DNA from: Deferrisomatales bacterium
GTDB lineage: Bacteria; Desulfobacterota; Deferrisomatia; Deferrisomatales; JACRMM01
NCBI GenBank assembly: GCA_033551855.1
Contig: JAWSUI010000063.1
Location: 1-19,964, forward strand
DNA length: 19,964 bases
Direction: 5' to 3'
Positions 4,222 to 19,964 of the stretch are shown here, in pieces. Under the pieces are notes generated by a model. It saw nothing but the letters and a program-made list of their open reading frames with translations. It made no database searches and was not told the DNA's origin. Numbering within the stretch: the first letter of the stretch is position 1; each line of letters opens with the position of its first letter. The translations under genes and the position numbers were made by a program.

Positions 4222-4899
4222 TCACCCCAGCCAGACGGCTGCCCCCGCCGCGTAGAAGACGGCGGGCATGAGATTGCCGGTGCGGATCACGGTGAGATTC
4301 AGGAGGTTGATCCCGATCCCCAGGATGAGCAGCCCGCCGGTGGCGGTGACCGCCTCCAGGACCTCCGGGGCCTGGAGAAAGGCCAGGTGGGAGGCCAGCA
4401 GGGTGAGCGAGCCCTGGGCCAGGAGCACGGTGCCCGCGGAGAACGCGACGCCGACCCCCAGGGACGACGCCAGCGCCACCGAGGCGACACCGTCCAGCAG
4501 CGCCTTGACGTACAGGGTCGTCGGGTCCCCGACCGTGCCGTCCTGGATCGAGCCGACGATCATCATGGCGCCGGTGCAGTACAGGATCGACGCCGTCACG
4601 AACCCCTGCACGAAGGTGGCGGACCGCGACCGGAGCCGCGCCTGCAGCCACCCGCCCAGGCTCGCGAGCCGGTCCTCCACCCGCAGCGCCTCGCCCGTGA
4701 CGGCGCCCAGGAGCAGACAGCCGATCGCCAGCAGGGGCCGGCTCCCCGAGAGGGCCATCTGCACCCCCAGGAAGACCACCGAGAGCCCGAGCCCCTGCAT
4801 GAGGATGTTCTTGAAGCGCTCGGGAAGGCGGCGCCCCGCGCCCACCCCGATGAGGCTCCCGGCCACCACCGCCCCCGCGTTCACCACGGTTCCGACCAC
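4222..4899 (-). CDS. DUF554 (YdfK-like) membrane protein
   Basis: 225 aa, multiple TM segments, motifs GTVVNA, GFVTASILYCTGAM, KALLDG, TGGLLILGIG and NLMPA; GGAGG RBS before the GTG start. Confidence 0.85.
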   Translation of the reverse strand: MVGTVVNAGAVVAGSLIGVGAGRRLPERFKNILMQGLGLSVVFLGVQMALSGSRPLLAIGCLLLGAVTGEALRVEDRLASLGGWLQARLRSRSATFVQGFVTASILYCTGAMMIVGSIQDGTVGDPTTLYVKALLDGVASVALASSLGVGVAFSAGTVLLAQGSLTLLASHLAFLQAPEVLEAVTATGGLLILGIGINLLNLTVIRTGNLMPAVFYAAGAAVWLG

Positions 4900-5070: not shown

Positions 5071-5874
5071 ATGACCGAGCATCCCGTAGCCCCCCCCTCG
5101 GTCTGGTGGGGGCGCTACACCCTCGAAGAAGGGCTGACCGGCCGCTGGCGCGTCGGCGCCCTCACCCTCTGGGCCCAGCGCCGCCCCGGCGAGTGGCGCC
5201 TGGCCCACGCGAGCACCAACGACCCCTTCGACGACGAAGTGGCCTCGCAGGTGCCAAGCGCCGAGCCGATCCCCTCCCACGGCGCCACGCTGGTGCGCTA
5301 CGCCATGAAGCACACCGACCGCTTCCTGGCCCTCGAGCCGGCGCTACCGGACCGCCCGGTGGTGTCCCGGCCCGACACCCCCTTCTACGTCCTCGCGGGG
5401 GAGGAAGTCCGCCTCTTCATCAGCACCCCTGTCTGGGTGAGGGTGCTGGCCGGCGCGCGGCGCCTGCTCGAGATCCCCGTCTACCGCCCCTCCGACACCT
5501 GGTTCGGGCCCTCCACCCGGGAGGGGGAGGTTTGCTACGACACCCGGACGAGTTGCCGCAACGAGCTCTCCCAGGTGCCTCGCCGGCCCCATCGGGCGGT
5601 GGCGGCCGTGACCATTCGCAACCGCACCGGCGATGCGGTTCTCGTCGAGCGGCTCAACCTCCCCGTGCCGTACCTCGCGGTGTACGCAGCGCCGGGCGGG
5701 GGCCTGTGGACGCAGGGGGTGACCCTCCAGATGGGGGGGGACGGGGGAAGCGCGGAGCTCCACATCGGCAAGGGGGCGCCGGCGGAGGCCCACGGGGCCA
5801 CTCTGCTCACCGGGCCCCGGGAGGACGCGGACCGCAACATCCTGGTCCGGGCGCTCAGCGCCCTGATCGGGTGA
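5071..5874 (+). CDS. Conserved hypothetical protein, possibly DUF432-like
   Basis: 267 aa with normal GC3 bias, a GGAG RBS and the motifs LPDRPVVSRP, SDTWFGP and GEVCY; 13 bp upstream of mscS. The family assignment is tentative and from memory. Confidence 0.65.
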   Translation: MTEHPVAPPSVWWGRYTLEEGLTGRWRVGALTLWAQRRPGEWRLAHASTNDPFDDEVASQVPSAEPIPSHGATLVRYAMKHTDRFLALEPALPDRPVVSRPDTPFYVLAGEEVRLFISTPVWVRVLAGARRLLEIPVYRPSDTWFGPSTREGEVCYDTRTSCRNELSQVPRRPHRAVAAVTIRNRTGDAVLVERLNLPVPYLAVYAAPGGGLWTQGVTLQMGGDGGSAELHIGKGAPAEAHGATLLTGPREDADRNILVRALSALIG

Positions 5875-5887
5875 GGGAGGAACCCCC

Positions 5888-6793
5888 ATGAACCAGGCCC
5901 TCGACATCCTACGGGATCTGCTCAGCAGCGGGCGGCTGATCTCGGGCTTCAACGCGATGGTCACCCTCGTGGTGGGGCTTCTGCTCACCCGGCTGATCAG
6001 CCGGTACGCGGGCCGGCTCGTCGGCCGGTACATCGGCGCCTCCCAGGGGGTTCTCGCCCGCCGGGTGAGCTACTACGCCCTAATGGCCCTGGTGCTGGTC
6101 TCGGTGCTGCGCGAGCTCGGGTTCGAGCTCACGGTGGTCCTGGGCGCGGCCGGCGTCCTCTCCGTCGCCCTGGGCTTCGCCTCCCAGACCTCGGCCTCGA
6201 ACCTCATCAGCGGCCTCTTCCTCATGGCCGAGAAGCCTTTCGTGGTGGGCGACCTGATCAAGGTCGGCGACACCACGGGCGAGGTGCTCTCGGTGGACCT
6301 GCTCTCGGTGAAACTGCGCACCTTCGACAACCTCTTCGTGCGCGTTCCCAACGAGACCATGGTCAAGGCCGAGATCACCAACCTGACGCGGTTCCCCATC
6401 CGCCGCCTCGACGTGAAGGTCGGGGTGGCTTACAAGGAGGACGTCACGAGGGTGAAGGAGGTCCTCCTCACCGTGGCCGAGAGGAACCCCCTGTGCCTCG
6501 AGGAGCCCAAACCCCTCTTCCTCTTCCTGGGGTTCGGGGACTCCTCCCTGGACCTGCAGTTCTCGGTCTGGGCCCTGCGCCAGAACTTCCTGGAGATCCG
6601 AAACACCATCCACGCCGAGATCAAGGCCGCCTTCGACGCCGCCGGCATCGAGATTCCCTTCCCCCACCGGTCGCTCTACGCCGGGAGCGTCACCGACCCC
6701 TTCCCGGTGCGGCTCGTGGGCGGGGCTCCGCCGGCGGCCGAGCCGCCACTCCAGGTCGCGCCGAGCCCACCCGCAGCCCCCGAGACGCGGTAG
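5888..6793 (+). CDS. mscS: Small-conductance mechanosensitive channel
   Basis: TM3 motif GAAGVLSVALGFASQ..SNLISG, plus EKPFVVGDLI, VRVPNE, FGDSSLD and GIEIPFP. Confidence 0.93.
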   Translation: MNQALDILRDLLSSGRLISGFNAMVTLVVGLLLTRLISRYAGRLVGRYIGASQGVLARRVSYYALMALVLVSVLRELGFELTVVLGAAGVLSVALGFASQTSASNLISGLFLMAEKPFVVGDLIKVGDTTGEVLSVDLLSVKLRTFDNLFVRVPNETMVKAEITNLTRFPIRRLDVKVGVAYKEDVTRVKEVLLTVAERNPLCLEEPKPLFLFLGFGDSSLDLQFSVWALRQNFLEIRNTIHAEIKAAFDAAGIEIPFPHRSLYAGSVTDPFPVRLVGGAPPAAEPPLQVAPSPPAAPETR

Positions 6794-6874: not shown

Positions 6875-8050
6875 ATGTCTCGGTGGTTCGGATGGCAGTG
6901 GTCGGCCGCGCCGGTGCTCCCGGGCTTGGCGCTCGTCTTGGGTTTGGGCCTTTCCCTGGGGGGGTGCGGAAGCGACGACTGGAGCGACGACGACGGTTCT
7001 CCCCGACCGCCGCCCCGGGGCTCCCTCACGGTGGAGCTCGCCGGAGACCCCAGCGTGGCCTACGACCCGGCCCGGGGGCGGACCACCGTGGTGGTGCAGT
7101 TCATCGCCCGGGGGGCCGACGGGGTGCCCCTGGCGCCCTCGGATCTCGCCGTGGAGATGCTGGTGGACGGCCGGGCGGTGGACAACGAGTCGGTCCTCCA
7201 GGAGAGCTCCCAGGAGCTCGCCGCGAGCGTTCTCTACTCCCTGGTGCTCGACGCCAGCGGCTCCATGCTCCAGCACGAGCCCCCCGCCTTCGGCCCCATG
7301 AAGGAGGCGGCGCGCAAGAGCGTGCAGGACGGACGCGACCTCTGGCAGGACCGGCCCGGCACGTTTGCCTGGGACGTGTGCTGGTTCAACGACGTGCTCT
7401 TCCACCGCCAGGGGACGTGGAACCCCGACCACATCTCCTCCATCCCCGCGCCGCCCGACGAAGAAGCGGCCACCAAGCTCTACGCCGCCGTCCAGTTCAT
7501 GGCTCGGGAGATGGCCGACGCCCACGGGGCGGGCACGGCCGCCGGAGTACGGGACCAGCACATCCTGGTGGTCCTCTCCGACGGCGCCGACAACCTGAGC
7601 GGGTTCGACAACAGCATGAGCGCCGTCGACGAGAGAGCTCGCGTCCCCCCCTCGACCGACACAACCTCGACCAGCGCCGGCTACGTGCGTTTCGGGTGGC
7701 CAGCCACGACCCTCGACGACGCCCTCACTGCCATCCGGGCCCACCCCCGGCTCACGGTGCACGTGCTGGCCCTGGGCTCGGAGTTCCGGCCCGGGGATCT
7801 CAACAACCTGGGCGAGATCGCCCAGGCCGGAGGGGGACAGCTGCTCGTGAACCCTTCGAGCGACTCGTCCGAGCAGCTCTTCGACCGGGTCACCCGGGAG
7901 TTCACCACCCTCCAGACCCGGGGGGCGGCCATTCCCCAGCAGTCTGGAGACCACACCTTCACCCTGCGGGTGCAAGGGGTCACCTTTACCGGGGAGGGGA
8001 CCGAGACCTTCCGGTACCGGGCCGGGCCCGAGGCGCAGCTCCTGCCGTAG
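6875..8050 (+). CDS. VWA-domain putative lipoprotein
   Basis: Hydrophobic signal segment ending in the lipobox LGGC; MIDAS elements LVLDASGSM, ATKLYAA and VVLSDG. Confidence 0.8.
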   Translation: MSRWFGWQWSAAPVLPGLALVLGLGLSLGGCGSDDWSDDDGSPRPPPRGSLTVELAGDPSVAYDPARGRTTVVVQFIARGADGVPLAPSDLAVEMLVDGRAVDNESVLQESSQELAASVLYSLVLDASGSMLQHEPPAFGPMKEAARKSVQDGRDLWQDRPGTFAWDVCWFNDVLFHRQGTWNPDHISSIPAPPDEEAATKLYAAVQFMAREMADAHGAGTAAGVRDQHILVVLSDGADNLSGFDNSMSAVDERARVPPSTDTTSTSAGYVRFGWPATTLDDALTAIRAHPRLTVHVLALGSEFRPGDLNNLGEIAQAGGGQLLVNPSSDSSEQLFDRVTREFTTLQTRGAAIPQQSGDHTFTLRVQGVTFTGEGTETFRYRAGPEAQLLP

Positions 8051-8136: not shown

Positions 8137-9816
8137 ATGGCCGAGCAGGCGGGAAAGCGGTTCCTGTTCCTCGGGGGCGTGCCCGTCTTCGACTACCTCA
8201 TCTCGGTGCGCATGGACGAGATCGCCCGGGCCACCGAGGACCGGGTCGTCACCGTCGGCGACCGCATCCTCCTGCCCCTAGGCACGGTCTTCCGGTTCCA
8301 GGTGGAGGGGTCCGGCGAGACCCGGGTGGTCAACCCCATGGCCAGCCGGGAAGTGCAGCAGGTGCACGACCGGTGCTACTACTCCCTGGAGCTGGGGGGA
8401 AAGCACGCCGAGCAGTATGGCTTCACCCTGTGCGGCGACCTGCCGTCGGCCGCCGCCGAGCTCCGGCAGGCCTTCCCGGACCAGATCCGGGGCGAGAGCG
8501 ACCTGAAGGTGGTGGAGGTCTCCGCCCCGGCGCTGCTGCGGCTGGGGGGGAACAACAAGAACATCGTCGAGGGGATCCACACCCTCTACACCTCCCCGGA
8601 GCTCCGGGACCGGGTCGAGGGGGTGCGCTTCGAGCACCACTTCTTCTGCGATACCCGGGAGCCCAAGCACGGGCTGATCCAGGAGCTCTATGGGCGGCTG
8701 GGGGTCACCCTCGGCCGGCCCGAGGTGATGCACGTGGAGGGGTTGGCGCCCCGCATCGGCTACGTCTTCACCCTGCAGGACCCCTCGGGGGAGCCCCTGG
8801 ACCGGGTCATCCTGGCCAGTCGGACCAACGAGGAGATCATCCCCGCAGAGCAGCTCCGCAAGACCTACTTCGACCTGGAGTACCGCCTGCGGCGCGACCC
8901 CCGGTGGGTGGACACCCACCTGGTCGTCAACTCCATGACCAACCCGGAGGAGGTCCGGCTCCTCCTGCGCCTGCTCCAGACCGCCTACGCCGGGGGGGCG
9001 ATCACCACCGTCTGCCCGACCTTGACGTTCCTGCGCTGCCTGGACCGGCTGGTGGAGGCGCGTTACTTCACCACGGAGGAGGAGAGGTTCTTCTCCTACC
9101 GGAAGGACCTCGTCTACGCGGCCATCCTCCCCTTCGTCCAGTACCTGATCCTGAACCGCGACGAGCTCTCGGCCCTGGACGACGCCGTGGCCAAGCGGGG
9201 CGTCGACGCGACGGCGAGCTTCGTGGCCAACCGGATGAACCGGGGCAAGCGTGAGGACTGCGCCGAGGGGGGCAAGGTCGTGGTGACCGGGGGGAGCAAG
9301 GGCGCCCGCCTCACCGAGCGGCTGAGCCCGGAACGCGCCGCCGTTTTCTGGCGAAAGGCGGAGCTCCCCCCCGACCGGGCGGTGCGGTTCGGGGAGCGCC
9401 GGATCGTCTGCGGCAACGACTACGTCACGGAGCTCACCACCACCCTCGGGGCCGGCGACGTCTTCACGGGGATCTTCATCGGCCTCACGTCCCTGGGCTG
9501 GGACGGGGGCCACGCCCTCCGGGCCGCCACCCTAGGGGCGCAGCACTTCATCCGCCACCGGACCCAGCCCCGGCTGGCGGACATGGTGGCGGTGGACGAG
9601 GAGCACATCCGCCTGGGAACCGAGACCGAGCTCCTGGACGTGATCTCGCACCACCTGGCCGCCGCAGGCGACCCGACCCGCTACGGCACCATCTCCGACA
9701 CCGTGATCACGATCCGGACGACCCAGATCCAGCACCCCTTCCGCGAGATCCTCGCCCTGGAGGCCGACCGCCCGGGACGGTGGGCCGCGTTCTCCCGCCG
9801 CCCGGCCGGGCCGTGA
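8137..9816 (+). CDS. Large PfkB/ribokinase-superfamily carbohydrate kinase, 559 aa
   Basis: LGGNNKN, LNRDEL, VVVTGGSKGA and the anion-hole motif TTLGAGDVF; GGAGG RBS. Confidence 0.75.
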   Translation: MAEQAGKRFLFLGGVPVFDYLISVRMDEIARATEDRVVTVGDRILLPLGTVFRFQVEGSGETRVVNPMASREVQQVHDRCYYSLELGGKHAEQYGFTLCGDLPSAAAELRQAFPDQIRGESDLKVVEVSAPALLRLGGNNKNIVEGIHTLYTSPELRDRVEGVRFEHHFFCDTREPKHGLIQELYGRLGVTLGRPEVMHVEGLAPRIGYVFTLQDPSGEPLDRVILASRTNEEIIPAEQLRKTYFDLEYRLRRDPRWVDTHLVVNSMTNPEEVRLLLRLLQTAYAGGAITTVCPTLTFLRCLDRLVEARYFTTEEERFFSYRKDLVYAAILPFVQYLILNRDELSALDDAVAKRGVDATASFVANRMNRGKREDCAEGGKVVVTGGSKGARLTERLSPERAAVFWRKAELPPDRAVRFGERRIVCGNDYVTELTTTLGAGDVFTGIFIGLTSLGWDGGHALRAATLGAQHFIRHRTQPRLADMVAVDEEHIRLGTETELLDVISHHLAAAGDPTRYGTISDTVITIRTTQIQHPFREILALEADRPGRWAAFSRRPAGP

Positions 9817-14753: not shown

Positions 14754-17700
14754 ATGGACGCCAGAACGGAGCTCCGCGTGTACCGCCGCTTTCTCCAGGC
14801 CCTGCACGACCACTGCGAGGCTTCGTCCCGAAGCCTGGAGTGGCTTCGCCGGCACATGCACCCGTACTTCTTCATCACCATGGCCGACGAGACCGAGGCC
14901 GTGGTGAACCTGGCCTCCGGACTCGCGTCCCTGGGGGAGAATCGGCGCATCACCCTGGTGGACCAGGAGAAGAAGCTCGTCTGGGCCTGCATGAACCGGC
15001 CGGGCTCGGTGTACCGGTCGCTCCTCGAGATCCAGGACCGGCCCCTCTCCTACGCGGAGATCACCCACTCCTACCACCCCGTCCCGGAGCTGTGCTGCGA
15101 GCTCGAGATCCAGCGCTTCGAGTTCGACCGCAAGTCGAACGGGGAGGTGGCCCGGGCGGCCCGCAGCGGCCCCGCCCCCGTTCCCGACCGGGTGCGGCGG
15201 GGGGTGTCCCGCGCCCTGCGCGCCCTGTACCCCCGCTTCGACTTCGGGGAACTCCGGAAGGTGCTCGACCTCCTCTGGCTCAACGCCGAGCGCTACGTGG
15301 CGGTCTCGCCCCCCGAGCGGGTGGCGCGGGTGCTCTGGCTCTACCAGCAGGGGCGCCTCCACGACGGTTTGTTCCTCGACGCGGAGAACACCCGAGACGT
15401 GGTGCACCACCGGGAGACCCGGCTCCTCTTCTCGGTGGGCAACCCGGACGAGCGGGGGTTCCTGGCCCAGGCCCTCGAGGTCTTCCACCGCCTGGAGCTG
15501 GCGGTGCGGCGCTCCTACTGCCTCACCCTCTCCACCGGGGTCCACCCCTACTTCCTCGGCACCTTTTACGTGACGACCCGCGAGGGGGGGCTCCTCCAGA
15601 AGGACTCCGAGCTCTTCCGCACCCTCCAATCCGAGCTCTACAACACCCAGATCCTCTCCACCACGGGCCGCACCTACACCGAGTTCGTGGCCGACCGCGT
15701 CATGACCGGGGAGGAGGCGTCCCTAACCAACGCCTTCATCGCCTTCTCCCACACGAACCTGGCCCACAGCCAGCCCGACCGGTTCGACCTGGGGGAGGTG
15801 AGAAGAGCCTTCCACGCGAGCCCCGACGTGGTCCTGCAGCTCGCCCGGCTCTTCCGGGCCCGCTTCGACCCGGACCTGGGAGCGCCCGGGGCGCCGGCCC
15901 GCCGGGCCGCGTGCGACGAGGCGTTGGCGGCCTCCCGGGCCCTGGTGGAGAGCTACAACACGGGCCACCGCCACCTGGACGAGGTCCGGCGGACGATCTT
16001 CCGCACCGCGCTCTTCCTGGTCACCCACACCCTCAAGACCAACTTCTTCGTGCCGGAGAAGCACGCCCTGGCCTTCCGGCTCGACCCCTCGTACCTCCAG
16101 GAGTTCGAGCCCGAGCTCACCGCGGACCTCCCCGCCGGCGAGCCGTTCCGGATCACCTTCTTCTACGGGCGCCACGGGTCGGGCTACCACGTGGGCTTCT
16201 CCGACATCGCCCGGGGCGGGTGGCGAACCGTGCCCTGCACCTCCCCCGACGACTTCCTGGCCGCCGCCAACACCCTCTTCCGCGAGGTCTACGTGCTGGC
16301 CCACACCCAGCACCTGAAGAACAAGGACATCTACGAGGGGGGCTCCAAGATGGTGGTCGTCCTCGACACCTCCGACGTCCACGACCGGGAGCTCCGCACC
16401 CAGCGCCTCTACAAGCTCCAGTACGGGTTCCTGAACGCCTTCCTCGACCTCTTCGTCACGAAGGACGGTCGCGCCGCCCACCCCCGCGTCGTGGACTACT
16501 ACGGCGAGGACGAGCCGATCGAGCTGGGGCCCGACGAGAACATGCACGACGCGATGATCGAGCTCATCGCCCGCCAAGCAGCCCGGCGCGGCTACATCCT
16601 CGGCAAGGGGATCATCTCGTCCAAGGAGGTGGGCATCAACCACAAGGAGTACGGCGTGACCTCCCTGGGGGTCGTCACCATGGCCGAGACCGCCCTCGCG
16701 GAGCTCGGCATCGACCCCCGCCGGGACCCCTTCACGGTCTCGATGACCGGGGGCCCCAACGGCGACGTGGCCGGAAACGCCATGCGGCTCCTGCTGGCCC
16801 GGTGCCCCGGGGTCCGCATCCTCTCCATCGTGGCCGGCTCGGGGGCCGTGTACGACCCCGAGGGGATCGACCGGGAGGAGCTCTCCCGCCTCGTGCTCCA
16901 GGCCAACGTCGACGCCTTCGACCCGGACCGGCTCCACCCCGGGGGATTCCTGCTCCTGCGCCGGGGCCGGAAGCAGGAGGGCCTCAAGGAGCTCTACCGG
17001 AAGCTCGTGCGCACCCCGGCCGGCGTCGCGGAGCAGTGGGTCACGGCGGACGAGCTCCACCGGGAGCTCGACGACCTCATCTTCACCGTCCCCGCGGACC
17101 TCTTCCTGCCGGGGGGCGGCCGGCCCGAGACCATCGACGCCCGAAACGCGGGGCGGCTCTTCCGGGAGGACGGCACCCCGCTCGTGCGAGCCGTGGTGGA
17201 GGGAGCGAACTCCTTCGTCACCCCGGAAGCCCGCACCGAGCTCCAGCGCCGCGGCGTGATCGTGCTGCGCGACGCCTCCGCGAACAAGTGCGGGGTCATC
17301 TCCTCGTCCTACGAGATCCTGGCGAACCTCCTCCTCAGCGACGAGGAGTTCCTGGCGCGCAAGGCCCAGTACGTGGCCGACGTGCTGCGCATCCTGGAAA
17401 AGCGGGCCGGCGACGAGGCCCGGCTCATCTTCCGGCGCCATCGGGAGGCCGGCGGGACGCGCGCCTACACGGAAATCTCCAACGCCCTGAGCGGTGAGAT
17501 CAACGCCCACTACGAGCGCCTCTTCGCCTTCTTCCTGGCCCGGCCCGAGCTGGTGTCCCAGCCATACCTGCGTCGGGTGCTCCTGAACCACCTGCCGGAG
17601 CTGGTGAGCCGAGACCCCGTGCTCCGCCGGCGGGTGGGCCGGCTGCCCTTCAAGATCCGCTGCGCCGTCTTGGCCGTCGAGCTCGCGACCTCCATCGTCT

Positions 17701-17771
17701 ACCGCGGCGGCTGGGAACCCGACCTGGAGAGCAGCATCCGCGCCTACGCGAAGCGGGCGTTCGGGGGGTAG
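14754..17771 (+). CDS. Large NAD-specific glutamate dehydrogenase, 1005 aa
   Basis: DIARGGWR, KNKDIYEGGSK, LGPDEN, HKEYGVTS, TGGPNGDVAGN, VEGANSF and DASANKCGVISSSYE; AGGAGG RBS. Confidence 0.9.
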   Translation: MDARTELRVYRRFLQALHDHCEASSRSLEWLRRHMHPYFFITMADETEAVVNLASGLASLGENRRITLVDQEKKLVWACMNRPGSVYRSLLEIQDRPLSYAEITHSYHPVPELCCELEIQRFEFDRKSNGEVARAARSGPAPVPDRVRRGVSRALRALYPRFDFGELRKVLDLLWLNAERYVAVSPPERVARVLWLYQQGRLHDGLFLDAENTRDVVHHRETRLLFSVGNPDERGFLAQALEVFHRLELAVRRSYCLTLSTGVHPYFLGTFYVTTREGGLLQKDSELFRTLQSELYNTQILSTTGRTYTEFVADRVMTGEEASLTNAFIAFSHTNLAHSQPDRFDLGEVRRAFHASPDVVLQLARLFRARFDPDLGAPGAPARRAACDEALAASRALVESYNTGHRHLDEVRRTIFRTALFLVTHTLKTNFFVPEKHALAFRLDPSYLQEFEPELTADLPAGEPFRITFFYGRHGSGYHVGFSDIARGGWRTVPCTSPDDFLAAANTLFREVYVLAHTQHLKNKDIYEGGSKMVVVLDTSDVHDRELRTQRLYKLQYGFLNAFLDLFVTKDGRAAHPRVVDYYGEDEPIELGPDENMHDAMIELIARQAARRGYILGKGIISSKEVGINHKEYGVTSLGVVTMAETALAELGIDPRRDPFTVSMTGGPNGDVAGNAMRLLLARCPGVRILSIVAGSGAVYDPEGIDREELSRLVLQANVDAFDPDRLHPGGFLLLRRGRKQEGLKELYRKLVRTPAGVAEQWVTADELHRELDDLIFTVPADLFLPGGGRPETIDARNAGRLFREDGTPLVRAVVEGANSFVTPEARTELQRRGVIVLRDASANKCGVISSSYEILANLLLSDEEFLARKAQYVADVLRILEKRAGDEARLIFRRHREAGGTRAYTEISNALSGEINAHYERLFAFFLARPELVSQPYLRRVLLNHLPELVSRDPVLRRRVGRLPFKIRCAVLAVELATSIVYRGGWEPDLESSIRAYAKRAFGG

Positions 17772-17808
17772 GGAGGCGAATCCGGGGGTCCCGGTCGTAA
17801 GGACCACC

Positions 17809-18901
17809 AAGGGGACGTAAGTGAAATCAACACATTCCTCGGGTCACCTCCTCCAGGAGGCGTGTGGCCAGCTCACTGCCCCTCGCGTGGGGCGGCCAGC
17901 GGTTCACGGTCGAGGGCACGACCCCCAGGTACCGTGCCACCGCGGCCCCAGCGTAACCCAACCGGCCGACGGCCACCTCGATCAACGCCCGGCGGGCGGC
18001 GACTGCCGCCCGCCGCTTGCTGGGGCTTCTCAGCTCGTTCTCCTCTACCCCGGTCAACGCCGTGACCCCACGGACCAGCGAATCCAGGGGCACCCGCGCC
18101 TTGCCCAGCACCTGGCGGCGCTCCCAGTCCGCCTCTGCCAAGGTGTCCAGGACGAACTCCGGGCTCCCGAGGATCCTCTCGTCGTACGCCGGCGGACCTT
18201 CCTCGCGGCTTCGCCCCGTTCCTTCCAGCCACGCCCCGCAGCTGCGGCGTAAGCCTCCACCAACCAGGTCTGCCCGATGCCCCTCCCCGACGCCGTCGGC
18301 CACGAACTGCTCGTACCGCTTCCGTGCCGTCGGCACCGACCGCCCAAACCTTCCCAGCACCTCGCCCACATCCTGCCAAGGGCGCTCCACCACGCCGAGC
18401 AACGCGCCGTGGCCCGCGTAGGCTTGGCGCCCCAGCCTCACGAGGCTGTCCACCAAGCCGGCGCGCAACGGGTTGAGGTGGATGTACCGCACCAACTGGA
18501 GAAAGTAAGGCTCCTCCTCGACCACGATGCTTCGGTACCGGTTCTGGAAGAGATGGCCGTGACGCCCGTGGCGAAGATTGAAGGCCACGGCGTAGCCGGT
18601 CATGATCCGCCGCATCACCGCCGGCAGCCCCGCGTCCCCCGTGCGCAGGAGCAGGTGAAAGTGGTTGGGCAGGAGCGCCCACGCGTAGACCCGAGCCCCG
18701 CCCCTGACGACGGCCCTCTCGAGCCTGCGCAGGAAATCCTCGTAGTCGCGTTCCTCCACGAAGATCGCCTTGCGCTCGATCCCGCGGGCGATCACGTGGT
18801 GGAGGGTGCCGGGTGCGTCGAGACGGGCCTGGCGTGGCATGTCCCGAACCCTACCCCCGACCTGCGGCCAGCGCAATGCACAATTTCACTTACGTCCCCT
18901 T
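17809..18901. mobile_element. RAYT-type HUH transposase unit bounded by perfect 19-bp inverted repeats
   Basis: AAGGGGACGTAAGTGAAAT (17809-17827) and ATTTCACTTACGTCCCCTT (18883-18901) enclose the transposase gene; no flanking direct repeat is visible. Confidence 0.8.
17827..18840 (-). CDS. REP-associated tyrosine (Y1/HUH) transposase with a C-terminal HTH-like extension, 337 aa
   Basis: MPRQARLDAPGTLHHVIARG start, AWALLPNHFHLL (HUH), GHLFQNRYRS and RYIHLNP (catalytic Tyr plus NP); the C-terminal AAVARYLGVVPSTV looks like an HTH. Confidence 0.9.
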   Translation of the reverse strand: MPRQARLDAPGTLHHVIARGIERKAIFVEERDYEDFLRRLERAVVRGGARVYAWALLPNHFHLLLRTGDAGLPAVMRRIMTGYAVAFNLRHGRHGHLFQNRYRSIVVEEEPYFLQLVRYIHLNPLRAGLVDSLVRLGRQAYAGHGALLGVVERPWQDVGEVLGRFGRSVPTARKRYEQFVADGVGEGHRADLVGGGLRRSCGAWLEGTGRSREEGPPAYDERILGSPEFVLDTLAEADWERRQVLGKARVPLDSLVRGVTALTGVEENELRSPSKRRAAVAARRALIEVAVGRLGYAGAAVARYLGVVPSTVNRWPPHARGSELATRLLEEVTRGMC

Positions 18902-18911
18902 AGGGTTTTTG

Positions 18912-18947
18912 GTGATGTCTTGACATCACAGCTCATGATGCTAAGGT
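18912..18947 (+). promoter_or_regulatory. vapBC sigma70 promoter overlapped by a palindromic operator
   Basis: The palindrome GTGATGTC-TT-GACATCAC (18912-18929) contains TTGACA (18920-18925); after a 16-bp spacer comes TAAGGT (18942-18947), preceded by an extended -10 TGn. Confidence 0.7.
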
Positions 18948-18986
18948 GACTATTTGGACGGGGCGATGGCACGAGAGGATGGGCAC

Positions 18987-19232
18987 ATGAGGACGACCCT
19001 GCGGTTGGACGACGACGTGATCGACAAGGCGAGGGCGGCGGCGGCGAAGCTCGGTACCTCGTTTCGGGCCGTCGTGAACGAGGCGCTGCGGATGGGGTTG
19101 GACGAGGTGGTCAAGCCGGCGACCCGACGCCCTTATCGAACCAAACCCCACGCCATGGGGCTTCGGCCGGGCTTCAGCCTGGACGATGTGCAGGAAGTCC
19201 TCGCCCAGGCGGAGGGTGAGGACTTCCGGTGA
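18987..19232 (+). CDS. vapB: VapB-type RHH antitoxin, 81 aa
   Basis: MRTTLRLDDDV..VVNEALRMGL RHH pattern, GAGAGGA RBS, and a GTGA overlap with the PIN toxin gene. Confidence 0.88.
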   Translation: MRTTLRLDDDVIDKARAAAAKLGTSFRAVVNEALRMGLDEVVKPATRRPYRTKPHAMGLRPGFSLDDVQEVLAQAEGEDFR

Positions 19233-19660
19233 TCCTGGTCGACGCGAACCTCCTGCTCTACGCCGAGGACCGCCTGAGCCCCCACCACGAGGCGGCTCGG
19301 GGCTGGTGGGACGAGCAGTTGTCCGGGGCTTCACCGGTGTGTCTTTCGTGGCCGGTGATCGGCGCCTTCGTTCGGATCGGGACCAATCCTCGGATCTTCC
19401 GGCGCCCGCTGACCCTCGGGGAGGCGTTGCACCGGATCCAGAGCTGGCTCGAGCAGCCGTGCACACGGGTCGTGGTGCCGACGCAGCGGCACTGGGCGGT
19501 CTTCCGCGAGCTGTTGGAGCGCGGCCAGGCGACCGGAAACCTGGTCCCGGACGCCCACCTCGCCGCACTGGCCGTGGAGCACGGCTGCGAGCTGTGCTCG
19601 AGCGACACCGACTTCGTGCGGTTTCCTGGCCTCACCTGGCGAAATCCCCTCGCTACCTGA
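19229..19660 (+). CDS. vapC: VapC PIN-domain toxin
   Basis: MILVDANLLLYA, GNLVPDAHLAALAVEHG and SSDTDF..F.GL.W.NP, typical of mycobacterial-type VapC. Confidence 0.93.
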   Translation: MILVDANLLLYAEDRLSPHHEAARGWWDEQLSGASPVCLSWPVIGAFVRIGTNPRIFRRPLTLGEALHRIQSWLEQPCTRVVVPTQRHWAVFRELLERGQATGNLVPDAHLAALAVEHGCELCSSDTDFVRFPGLTWRNPLAT

Positions 19661-19694
19661 CGCCGTCGGCAAGTACTCCCGCCCCCCGTCCCTT

Positions 19695-19743
19695 CACCCC
19701 CGATCCGCCGCCCACGAAATGCGCAATTTCACTTACGTCCCTT
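19695..19743. repeat. Direct copy of the RAYT upstream-end repeat
   Basis: CACCCCCGATCCGCCGCCCACGAAATGCGCAATTTCACTTACGTCCCTT aligns with 18852..18901. Confidence 0.88.
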
Positions 19744-19821
19744 CAGCGGTTCGCGGTGCGTGCCCCTCACGGCGATTGTGGAGGCCGTGCCGTTGGCGGC
19801 CGTCCAGCCAGCCCCGACCCG

Positions 19822-19871
19822 CCACCCCGATCCGCCCCCTGCGAAATGCACAGTTTCACTTACGTCCCCTT
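19822..19871. repeat. Direct copy of the RAYT upstream-end repeat
   Basis: CCACCCCGATCCGCCCCCTGCGAAATGCACAGTTTCACTTACGTCCCCTT aligns with 19695..19743 and 18852..18901. Confidence 0.88.
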
Positions 19872-19964
19872 TGGGTTTGGGCTCTTGGAGGAAACATTTT
19901 TCCATCTATCCGGAAGTTCCTGAAAAATTCGTTCCTGAATCGAGGCGAACCCCCTGACATCCCA

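What the first reader, a model, noticed from the sequence alone, without database searches (positions are those of the whole stretch)
17809..19871. HUH/RAYT transposase next to a repeat-delimited cassette array carrying vapBC
Seen in the sequence: the core TTTCACTTACGTCCC(C)TT occurs four times. One copy is inverted at the transposase stop (17809-17827); three are direct, ending at 18901, 19743 and 19871. The three direct copies share ~48 bp (ACCCC(C)GA..GC..AATGCRCARTTTCACTTACGTCCC). They cut the DNA into a ~840-bp unit holding only promoter/operator + vapB + vapC and a ~128-bp non-coding unit. Established: RAYTs are HUH nucleases usually flanked by their REP substrates, and integron arrays often carry self-promoted TA cassettes. 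Inference: this may be an integron-like or peel-and-paste gene-capture system in which the Y1 enzyme inserts or excises cargo at its own end sequence. The array may continue past the window.
Basis: partly seen in the sequence, partly recalled or inferred. Interest (0 to 1): 0.85.

Follow-up and report, generated by a model that had tools for sequence, protein, structure and literature searches.

The report
Transposase end copies bracket extra genes
The repeats are the end sequence of a known but untested type of single-strand transposase element, and comparison with relatives suggests, without proving, that the enzyme cuts about ten bases beyond its own end, copies that end and traps foreign DNA (here a toxin-antitoxin pair) between the copies.

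Summary
The Y1 gene is a TIRYT (subclass 2.1.2), and the repeats are its terminal inverted repeats, not REPs or attC sites. The inverted copy and copy 1 bound a 1.1-kb 'TIRtron'. Copies 2 and 3 are duplicates of its left end, including a ~10-nt tail beyond the core.

Four results point to a fixed joint 8-10 nt outside the core:
- Tandem end-duplications occur at 15 of 88 gene-flanking ends, against 9 of 1,990 control sites.
- Extra cognate ends point outward in 16 of 18 cases, usually match the adjacent end and often enclose unrelated genes.
- A close strain departs from the window exactly 10 nt past copy 2.
- The vapBC operator starts just beyond copy 1's joint.

Best model: nick, copy the end, join foreign DNA. 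This is capture by end duplication, not integron cassette shuffling.

Against a dedicated system: 9 vapBC relatives lack the repeat, solo ends also sit between housekeeping genes, and only 13 of 56 element loci carry extra ends. Nothing shows enzyme activity.

The scan noted TIRYT ends at island joints on other DNA before. In passing: an IS110-family element targets this repeat.

The parts
14754..17771 (+). gdh, large NAD-glutamate dehydrogenase (host gene, context only)
   Evidence: PF05088, PF00208; orthologues in kin show no element end after the stop
17802..17830 (-). Right end of the TIRtron: inverted repeat overlapping the transposase stop codon (core ends at 17812), plus ~10-nt outer tail (tail length inferred)
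   Evidence: G004 copy of the element matches 17807-18901 end to end at 76%
17827..18840 (-). TIRYT: intact 337-aa Y1 HUH transposase (H60-F-H62, Y119-IHL-NP) with C-terminal HTH
18841..18898 (-). Left end (copy 1): predicted transposase promoter (-10 at 18848-18853, -35 at 18871-18876, 17-nt spacer, ATG 7 nt after the -10, so probably leaderless) followed by the inverted repeat; core ends at 18898
   Evidence: read from the sequence; same layout in relatives; promoter is inference and was not picked up by the consensus scan
18899..18908 (+). Tail of copy 1; inferred joint at about 18908/18909
   Evidence: 9 of 10 letters shared with the tail of copy 3, then divergence
18912..18947 (+). vapBC palindromic operator (18912-18929) and promoter (TTGACA at 18920-18925)
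   Evidence: same module upstream of 8 of 9 vapBC relatives
18987..19232 (+). vapB antitoxin, 81 aa
   Evidence: PF09957
19229..19660 (+). vapC PIN ribonuclease toxin, 143 aa
   Evidence: PF01850, TIGR00028
19686..19751 (+). Copy 2: partial left-end duplicate (decayed promoter, repeat, core ends at 19741) plus 10-nt tail; a close strain departs from the window right after 19751
19752..19812 (.). 61-nt non-coding spacer, possibly a decayed copy of the transposase 5' region
   Evidence: weak: 14 of 500 shuffles score as high; not covered in run X1
19813..19878 (+). Copy 3: partial left-end duplicate (core ends at 19868) plus tail
19905..19964 (.). End of an unrelated multi-copy element that breaks the contig
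   Evidence: 98% matches at the ends of C5, C80, C87 and a 48-nt match near the end of C70

Best explanation
17802-18908 is a TIRtron: a TIRYT gene between two outward-pointing ends. Copies 2 and 3 are duplicates of its left end, left behind when DNA was inserted at that end. Proposed steps, all inferred: (1) The enzyme binds the end and nicks the strand that reads into the element, 8-10 nt outside the ACGTCCC core, and stays bound to that 5' end through its tyrosine. (2) The free 3'-OH of the flank primes synthesis inward and copies tail, repeat and a variable length of inside DNA. (3) If the new strand is joined straight back to the tyrosine-held end, a short tandem end-duplication results. 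If it is first joined to foreign DNA, the product is end + tail | cargo | partial end copy + tail | old flank. vapBC came in this way with its own promoter and was probably kept because toxin-antitoxin pairs resist loss. Shown: the anatomy, the position of the joint, the direction and type of the extra ends, and one strain-level break at the joint. Not shown: nicking, which strand is cut, the donor of the cargo, any benefit to the host.
For: Family anatomy: 29 of 54 related loci have the motif inverted on both sides of the gene, 13 on one side, 12 on none. Two genomes hold a near-identical element whose identity stops 8-9 nt outside both cores, with unrelated flanks. Duplications spanning the end occur at 15 of 88 gene-flanking ends, against 9 of 1,990 control sites in this genome (7 of 337 intergenic) and 0 of 127 in the GTDB loci. 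Their outer joint lies about 5-13 nt out, while the inner start varies from 6 to 49 nt. Of 112 pairs of related ends, 79 share 0-4 outside letters, 33 share 5-15 (19 of them 8-10) and none shares more than 15; 32 of 20,045 unrelated pairs share 8-12. In 56 element loci there are 18 extra cognate ends in 13 loci: 16 point outward, 2 inward (p = 7e-4 if independent). Where both ends could be compared, 8 match the adjacent end, 1 does not and 1 is unclear. These outer copies carry 31-696 nt of the element's own inside sequence, in several loci with unrelated genes between the two ends (L002, L010, L025, L026, L087). Run X1, a close strain, follows the window to 19751, exactly 10 nt past copy 2's core, then continues with 474 other letters; 19752-19906 is not covered. 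The vapBC operator starts at +14 of copy 1. A phd gene's match to its paralogue stops at +11 of another end. The chemistry (5'-phosphotyrosine, 3'-OH used for priming or strand transfer) is established for HUH enzymes (PMC8266576, passages).
Against: No activity data exist for this subclass in what I read. Only 13 of 56 loci have extra ends, and part of that set (L070-L121, L218-L237) was fetched because it held the motif, a TIRYT or the IS end; the unbiased GTDB part gives 5 outward and 1 inward. Pairs and copies within one locus or genome are not independent. Nine vapBC relatives have no such repeat, so no donor or empty site was found for this cargo. Solo ends sit without cargo between housekeeping genes whose orthologues lack them. 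Only 10 of 79 TA genes of four families (4 of 40 PIN) lie within 1 kb of an end, and other TA arrays in this genome are divided by other repeat types. TA hits were found in only 9 of 43 GTDB loci (150 of 209 small ORFs scanned). The tail has no conserved sequence beyond +3, unlike the guide-selected cut sites of studied Y1 enzymes. The X1 break is one contig from one run, and I saw only 30 letters of it.
Confidence: 0.55

Rival explanations
1. Pile-up without capture: the TIRtron and solo copies of its ends are selfish repeats that land one after another in tolerant gaps, such as the edges of TA modules. vapBC was already there and is only a neighbour.
For: Cargo-free solo ends between housekeeping genes; gene-less inverted mini-pairs; whole elements move as a unit; TA arrays with other repeat types between modules; vapBC relatives without the repeat.
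Against: Independent landings should give both directions and both end types, but 16 of 18 extra ends point outward and 8 of 9 typed ones match the adjacent end. Copies 1 and 3 share their tail. Kin show no element end after gdh.
Confidence: 0.25
2. Integron-like cassettes: each unit, cargo plus its own end, is excised as a circle and inserted by the enzyme at another end.
For: Direct repeats divide the DNA into gene-sized units here and on contigs C101 and C118; strain-level change at a joint; ends are enriched near TA genes (6 of 20 clusters within 1 kb against 5.2% of intergenic gaps, p = 4e-4).
Against: The outer ends are copies of the resident end, with the element's own inside DNA. No unit was found with the same boundaries at a second site. 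No circle junction was seen (contigs only).
Confidence: 0.12
3. Enzyme-independent slippage or homologous recombination at C-rich repeats made the copies.
For: Many joints show short C-run overlaps; 7 of 337 intergenic control sites also show duplications.
Against: The outer joint keeps its distance from the core although tail sequences are unrelated, and the rate at ends is about 8 times the intergenic control.
Confidence: 0.08

Closest known systems
TIRtron / TIRYT (Di Nocera 2013, PMC3733652) = TnpA-Y1 subclass 2.1.2 (Quentin 2018, PMC6006769) = RAYT group 1 (Bertels 2017, PMC5581495)
   Same: RAYT-like Y1 gene with C-terminal HTH between terminal inverted repeats instead of REPs; GGGG-led end motif; divergent paralogues; dispersed copies of the ends.
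   Different: The end reads GGGGACGT, 6 of 8 against the published GGGGWSAS. The passages I read describe no fixed joint outside the repeat, no end-duplication, no cargo between end copies and no activity. Figure 9 and the supplements were not seen.
REPtron (TnpA-REP groups 2.2 and 2.5; PMC8266576)
   Same: Same HUH fold (best structural match 4er8); an enzyme gene beside its repeated substrate.
   Different: REPs are GTAG-tagged hairpins cut at CT or CA; these ends do not fold and the joint has no conserved sequence.
IS91/ISCR and Helitron rolling-circle gene capture (recalled, not read)
   Same: HUH nick, one fixed end and one variable end, neighbouring genes carried along.
   Different: Different transposase family; no inverted ends; here the end is duplicated in place around the cargo.
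Integrons
   Same: Units in one direction next to the enzyme gene; self-promoted TA cargo.
   Different: No integrase motif, no attC; the site is supplied by the recipient, not by the cassette.
procA clusters beside subclass 2.1 TnpA-REP in picocyanobacteria (10.1101/2020.03.09.984088)
   Same: Same subclass, interspersed with variable small genes and with truncated copies of the transposase.
   Different: [quoted passage not shown]

Membership tests
TIRtron / TIRYT (subclass 2.1.2) | HUH motif and class-2 Y---NP signature | tested here: met
   H60-F-H62 and Y119-IHL-NP; invariant in 38 aligned proteins; fold matches TnpA-REP
TIRtron / TIRYT (subclass 2.1.2) | C-terminal HTH (Bac_DnaA_C, HTH_23 or HTH_28) | tested here: met
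   HTH_23 E 4e-4, below the cut-off; helical C-terminal domain, and the model matches the DnaA DNA-binding domain 3pvp, TM 0.72, E 0.023; paralogues hit Bac_DnaA_C
TIRtron / TIRYT (subclass 2.1.2) | Gene flanked by terminal inverted repeats, not REPs | tested here: met
   19-nt perfect inverted pair; 29 of 54 relatives alike; no hairpin
TIRtron / TIRYT (subclass 2.1.2) | GGGG[AT][CG]A[CG] motif, seen in most but not all described TIRs | tested here: inconclusive
   GGGGACGT matches 6 of 8; it is the consensus of this clade's ends
TIRtron / TIRYT (subclass 2.1.2) | Formal assignment to subclass 2.1 by the authors' profiles or tree | not tested
   their profiles were not used; assignment rests on the features above
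REPtron / classical RAYT | GTAG-tagged palindromic REP flanking the gene | tested here: not met
   fold z-scores -0.8 to +1.3; NF047646 68.5 bits, cut-off 80
IS200/IS605 | Subterminal hairpins and a short transposase, with or without TnpB | tested here: not met
   337 aa, inverted unstructured ends, neighbours are gdh and vapB
Integron | IntI tyrosine recombinase | tested here: not met
   the enzyme is an HUH protein; a crude recalled IntI motif found nothing in the genome, which does not exclude a distant integrase
Integron | attC site after each cassette | tested here: not met
   no RYYYAAC...GTTRRRY pair in 18881-19964; no Rfam match of note
Integron | Excision and re-insertion of cassettes | not testable with these tools
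   only contigs of one run were available
IS91/ISCR rolling-circle elements | Y2-type transposase with ori and ter ends | tested here: not met
   PF01797 Y1 family, no IS91 family hit; a second invariant tyrosine, Y176, exists but its role is untested

The most novel reading that the evidence does not exclude
TIRtrons are a widespread gene-capture device of a kind I did not find described. An HUH enzyme nicks at a fixed distance outside its own end and duplicates that end around each piece of incoming DNA. This builds polar arrays with the newest unit nearest the gene, logically like CRISPR repeat duplication but at gene scale, and enriches stress and defence modules. The ends are stable enough that an IS110 lineage has programmed its guide RNA against them.
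Probability: 0.3. Interest if true: 0.85.

Novelty: new variant of a known kind. Interest (0 to 1): 0.62.

Why it matters
Subclass 2.1 is the second-largest group of these transposases (14.9% of strains in PMC6006769), and I found no described substrate or activity for it in the papers read. This locus gives a specific test: which DNA to offer, where the cut should fall (8-10 nt outside ACGTCCC), which strand, and what product to expect. If the model holds, it is a new route by which bacteria gain toxin-antitoxin and other accessory genes, and a compact enzyme that joins foreign strands at a set distance from a short site. If it fails, the locus is an ordinary TIRtron with decayed end copies.

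Tried and rejected
- REP hairpin: none of 9 folded pieces beat shuffles.
- attC, integrase motif, RNA family: none found.
- Tails made by fold-back copying: suggested by eye for the three copies, rejected. There is no enrichment over shuffled tails in 52 left and 36 right ends, and the window copies are beaten by 94-201 of 1,000 shuffles.
- Metagenome scan with a 17-nt core: 36 hits, most of them chance matches in unrelated genes; about 5 look like real ends.
- Same vapBC unit with the same borders elsewhere: not found in 41 relatives or 401 genomes of the phylum.
- A general position matrix of the ends was too loose and missed most copies in the window. An AT-rich filter gave 35 sites against 20-37 in shuffles. 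The later scan by likeness to gene-flanking ends gave 32 sites against 6 in reversed DNA, so about a fifth of those sites may be false. That scan also missed the window's own right end and the IS-split sites.
- Spacer as a transposase remnant: borderline.
- Consensus promoter scan found nothing, so the promoters are by-eye inferences.
- Sequence search of solved structures was only marginal (4er8, E 0.11).
- The letters that follow copy 2 in run X1 were not found in the genome or in the fetched loci, so insertion and replacement cannot be told apart.
- PMC2700814 (passages) said nothing on these ends.

Full report
Observation. The window is the whole contig C63 of a 4.24-Mb, 70% GC genome. Three direct copies align over 66 nt at 73-80%, spaced 843 and 127 nt apart, and a 19-nt perfect inverted pair brackets the transposase gene. 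The core occurs 8 times exactly in the genome against 0.0004 expected. The large unit holds vapB and vapC. A multi-copy element starts at about 19905 and breaks the contig, so no continuation can be seen.

The enzyme. The 337-aa protein has H60-F-H62 and Y119-IHL-NP, both invariant in 38 aligned relatives. It hits PF01797 and, weakly, HTH_23, and stays under the RAYT equivalog cut-off. Its model (pLDDT 86.6) matches TnpA-REP best, and also the DnaA DNA-binding domain. The passages of PMC3733652 and PMC6006769 fit: a RAYT-like gene with a C-terminal HTH between terminal inverted repeats led by GGGG, with no REP. Figure 9 and the supplements of these papers were not seen and may list this end type.

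The repeat is the element's end. Of 54 related loci, 29 have the ACGTCCC motif pointing outward on both sides of the gene, sharing 6-28 exact letters per element; 13 have one side and 12 none. A genome of the same family holds the element end to end (17807-18901, 76%) in another context. None of 12 gdh orthologue loci shows the end in the 160 nt after the aligned stop; two of these alignments were partial and one had Ns. The ends do not fold, and there is no attC. Copy 1 holds the predicted transposase promoter, and copies 2 and 3 resemble the left end, not the right.

The joint lies outside the core. Tandem duplications that span the end occur at 15 of 88 gene-flanking ends, against 9 of 1,990 control sites in this genome and 0 of 127 in the GTDB loci. 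The inner start varies from 6 to 49 nt; the outer joint stays about 5-13 nt out. Related ends share either 0-4 outside letters (79 of 112 pairs) or 5-15 (33, peak 8-10), never more (pairs within a locus are not independent). Two genomes share a near-identical element whose identity ends 8-9 nt outside both cores. In the window, copies 1 and 3 share 9 of 10 tail letters, and copy 2's tail is similar with small changes. The vapBC operator, conserved in 8 of 9 relatives, begins at +14. One public run holds the locus. Its contigs differ from the window at 36 listed places, follow it to 19751, exactly +10 of copy 2, and then continue with 474 other letters; 19752-19906 is uncovered. This is one contig of one run.

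Extra ends are local copies. In 56 loci with a near-full TIRYT and at least one end, 13 have 18 extra cognate ends. Sixteen point outward, and 8 of the 9 that could be typed match the adjacent end. They carry 31-696 nt of the element's inside. In several loci they enclose unrelated genes: a TrmO-like gene (L010), unannotated ORFs (L025, L026) and a DUF4258 pair in this genome (L087). Part of this set was fetched because it held the motif, a TIRYT or the IS end; the unbiased part gives 5 outward and 1 inward.

How far toxin-antitoxin cargo is special. In this genome 6 of 20 end clusters lie within 1 kb of a PIN, Phd, ParE or HepT gene, against 5.2% of 2,186 intergenic gaps. Contigs C101 and C118 are TA arrays with same-direction ends at several joints. 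But only 10 of 79 such TA genes are near an end, and other arrays are divided by other repeat types. Only 9 of 43 GTDB loci had TA hits (150 of 209 small ORFs scanned). Nine vapBC relatives have no end beside them. Solo ends also sit between housekeeping genes whose orthologues lack them. So capture, if real, is occasional and not specific for TA genes; their excess may reflect what is kept.

Mechanism. HUH enzymes leave a 5'-phosphotyrosine and a 3'-OH that can prime synthesis or attack the tyrosine bond (PMC8266576, passages). A nick on the inward-reading strand 8-10 nt outside the core, inward synthesis of variable length and re-joining would give the observed duplications. With foreign DNA joined in between, it would give end | cargo | partial end copy. 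This one scheme accounts for the fixed outer and variable inner boundary, the direction and type of extra ends, the shared tails, and the lack of ends on vapBC elsewhere. It is inference (0.55). Rivals: pile-up of selfish ends (0.25), true cassettes (0.12), enzyme-free slippage (0.08).

An IS that targets the repeat. In this genome five IS left ends follow end-like sequence (four of them this very repeat), and four right ends are followed by GTCCC, with a 2-nt GT core. Run X1 shows both junctions at 18894/18895, while the intact copy 1 is bridged at depth 11 against 31-33 beside it; I read this as a mixed population. The right end plus GTCCC occurs in 39 of 401 genomes of the phylum, with 0 control matches; the pattern itself demanded the GTCCC. 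Two assembled copies that I scanned encode IS110-family transposases. Four of six inspected copies sit directly in a TIRYT left end. Their downstream non-coding region holds 8 letters matching each copy's own target in 4 of 6, read by eye. PMC11187229 (passages) names attC, REP and Tn21 ends as targets of such elements, not TIRtron ends.

Novelty. The element type is known. Eight literature searches (listings and abstract starts only) showed no paper on capture or end-duplication at TIRtron ends, or on an IS110 that targets them; most subscription journals are not covered. The picocyanobacterial preprint (first half read) reports an association with variable genes but no mechanism. Bertels 2017 (passages) notes that group 1 is the most IS-like RAYT group. 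This scan has noted TIRYT ends at island joints and end-duplications on other DNA. What this locus adds is the measured joint, the strain-level break at it, the side-matching count and the IS110 link. Verdict: new variant of a known kind, interest 0.62.

Noticed in passing
window 18894-18895; G000 C47, C62, C94, C100, C104, C118, C120, C121 ends; L221-L225, L230: An IS110-family element with a downstream non-coding region inserts into the TIRtron end at the GT of ACGTCCC. Its right end plus target occurs in 39 of 401 genomes of the phylum, and the putative guide letters follow each copy's target in 4 of 6 copies read by eye. Joined ends would form a TTGAC-17-TATA promoter.
   Followed up: partly
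L086 (G000 C101), L090 (C118), L092 (C92), L087 (C42): TA arrays with several different TIR types at module joints, mostly in one direction. One type heads a repeated ~270-nt remnant of a gene of no known family (L092:1822-2049).
   Followed up: partly
G000 C24:1-8200, C48:1-6200, C77:2000-7000, C99:1500-7000: Further TA arrays divided by other repeats (periodic 7-9-nt word arrays, GTAG-type REPs). The genome has 40 PIN genes.
   Followed up: no
L088:101-164; L102:4419-4484 and 6372-6438; L147; L176: Gene-less inverted mini-pairs of the ends, 35-65 nt apart, some next to TA genes.
   Followed up: partly
L207/L218, L211/L219, L224: IS110 right end plus GTCCC is followed by a short repeat of itself, as if the split end still undergoes duplication.
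   Followed up: no
window 19905-19964: End of an unclassified multi-copy element, also at the ends of C5, C80, C87 and near the end of C70.
   Followed up: partly
L145, L152: The same end and tail in two metagenome contigs with different genes on both sides, followed by letters that recall a group II intron 3' end (recalled, untested).
   Followed up: no
P0001 residue 176: A second tyrosine is invariant in all 38 aligned TIRYTs.
   Followed up: no
window 5071-5874, 4222-4899, 6875-8050, 8137-9816: Predicted genes that I left unexplained: three had no Pfam or NCBIfam hit; 4222-4899 was not scanned.
   Followed up: no
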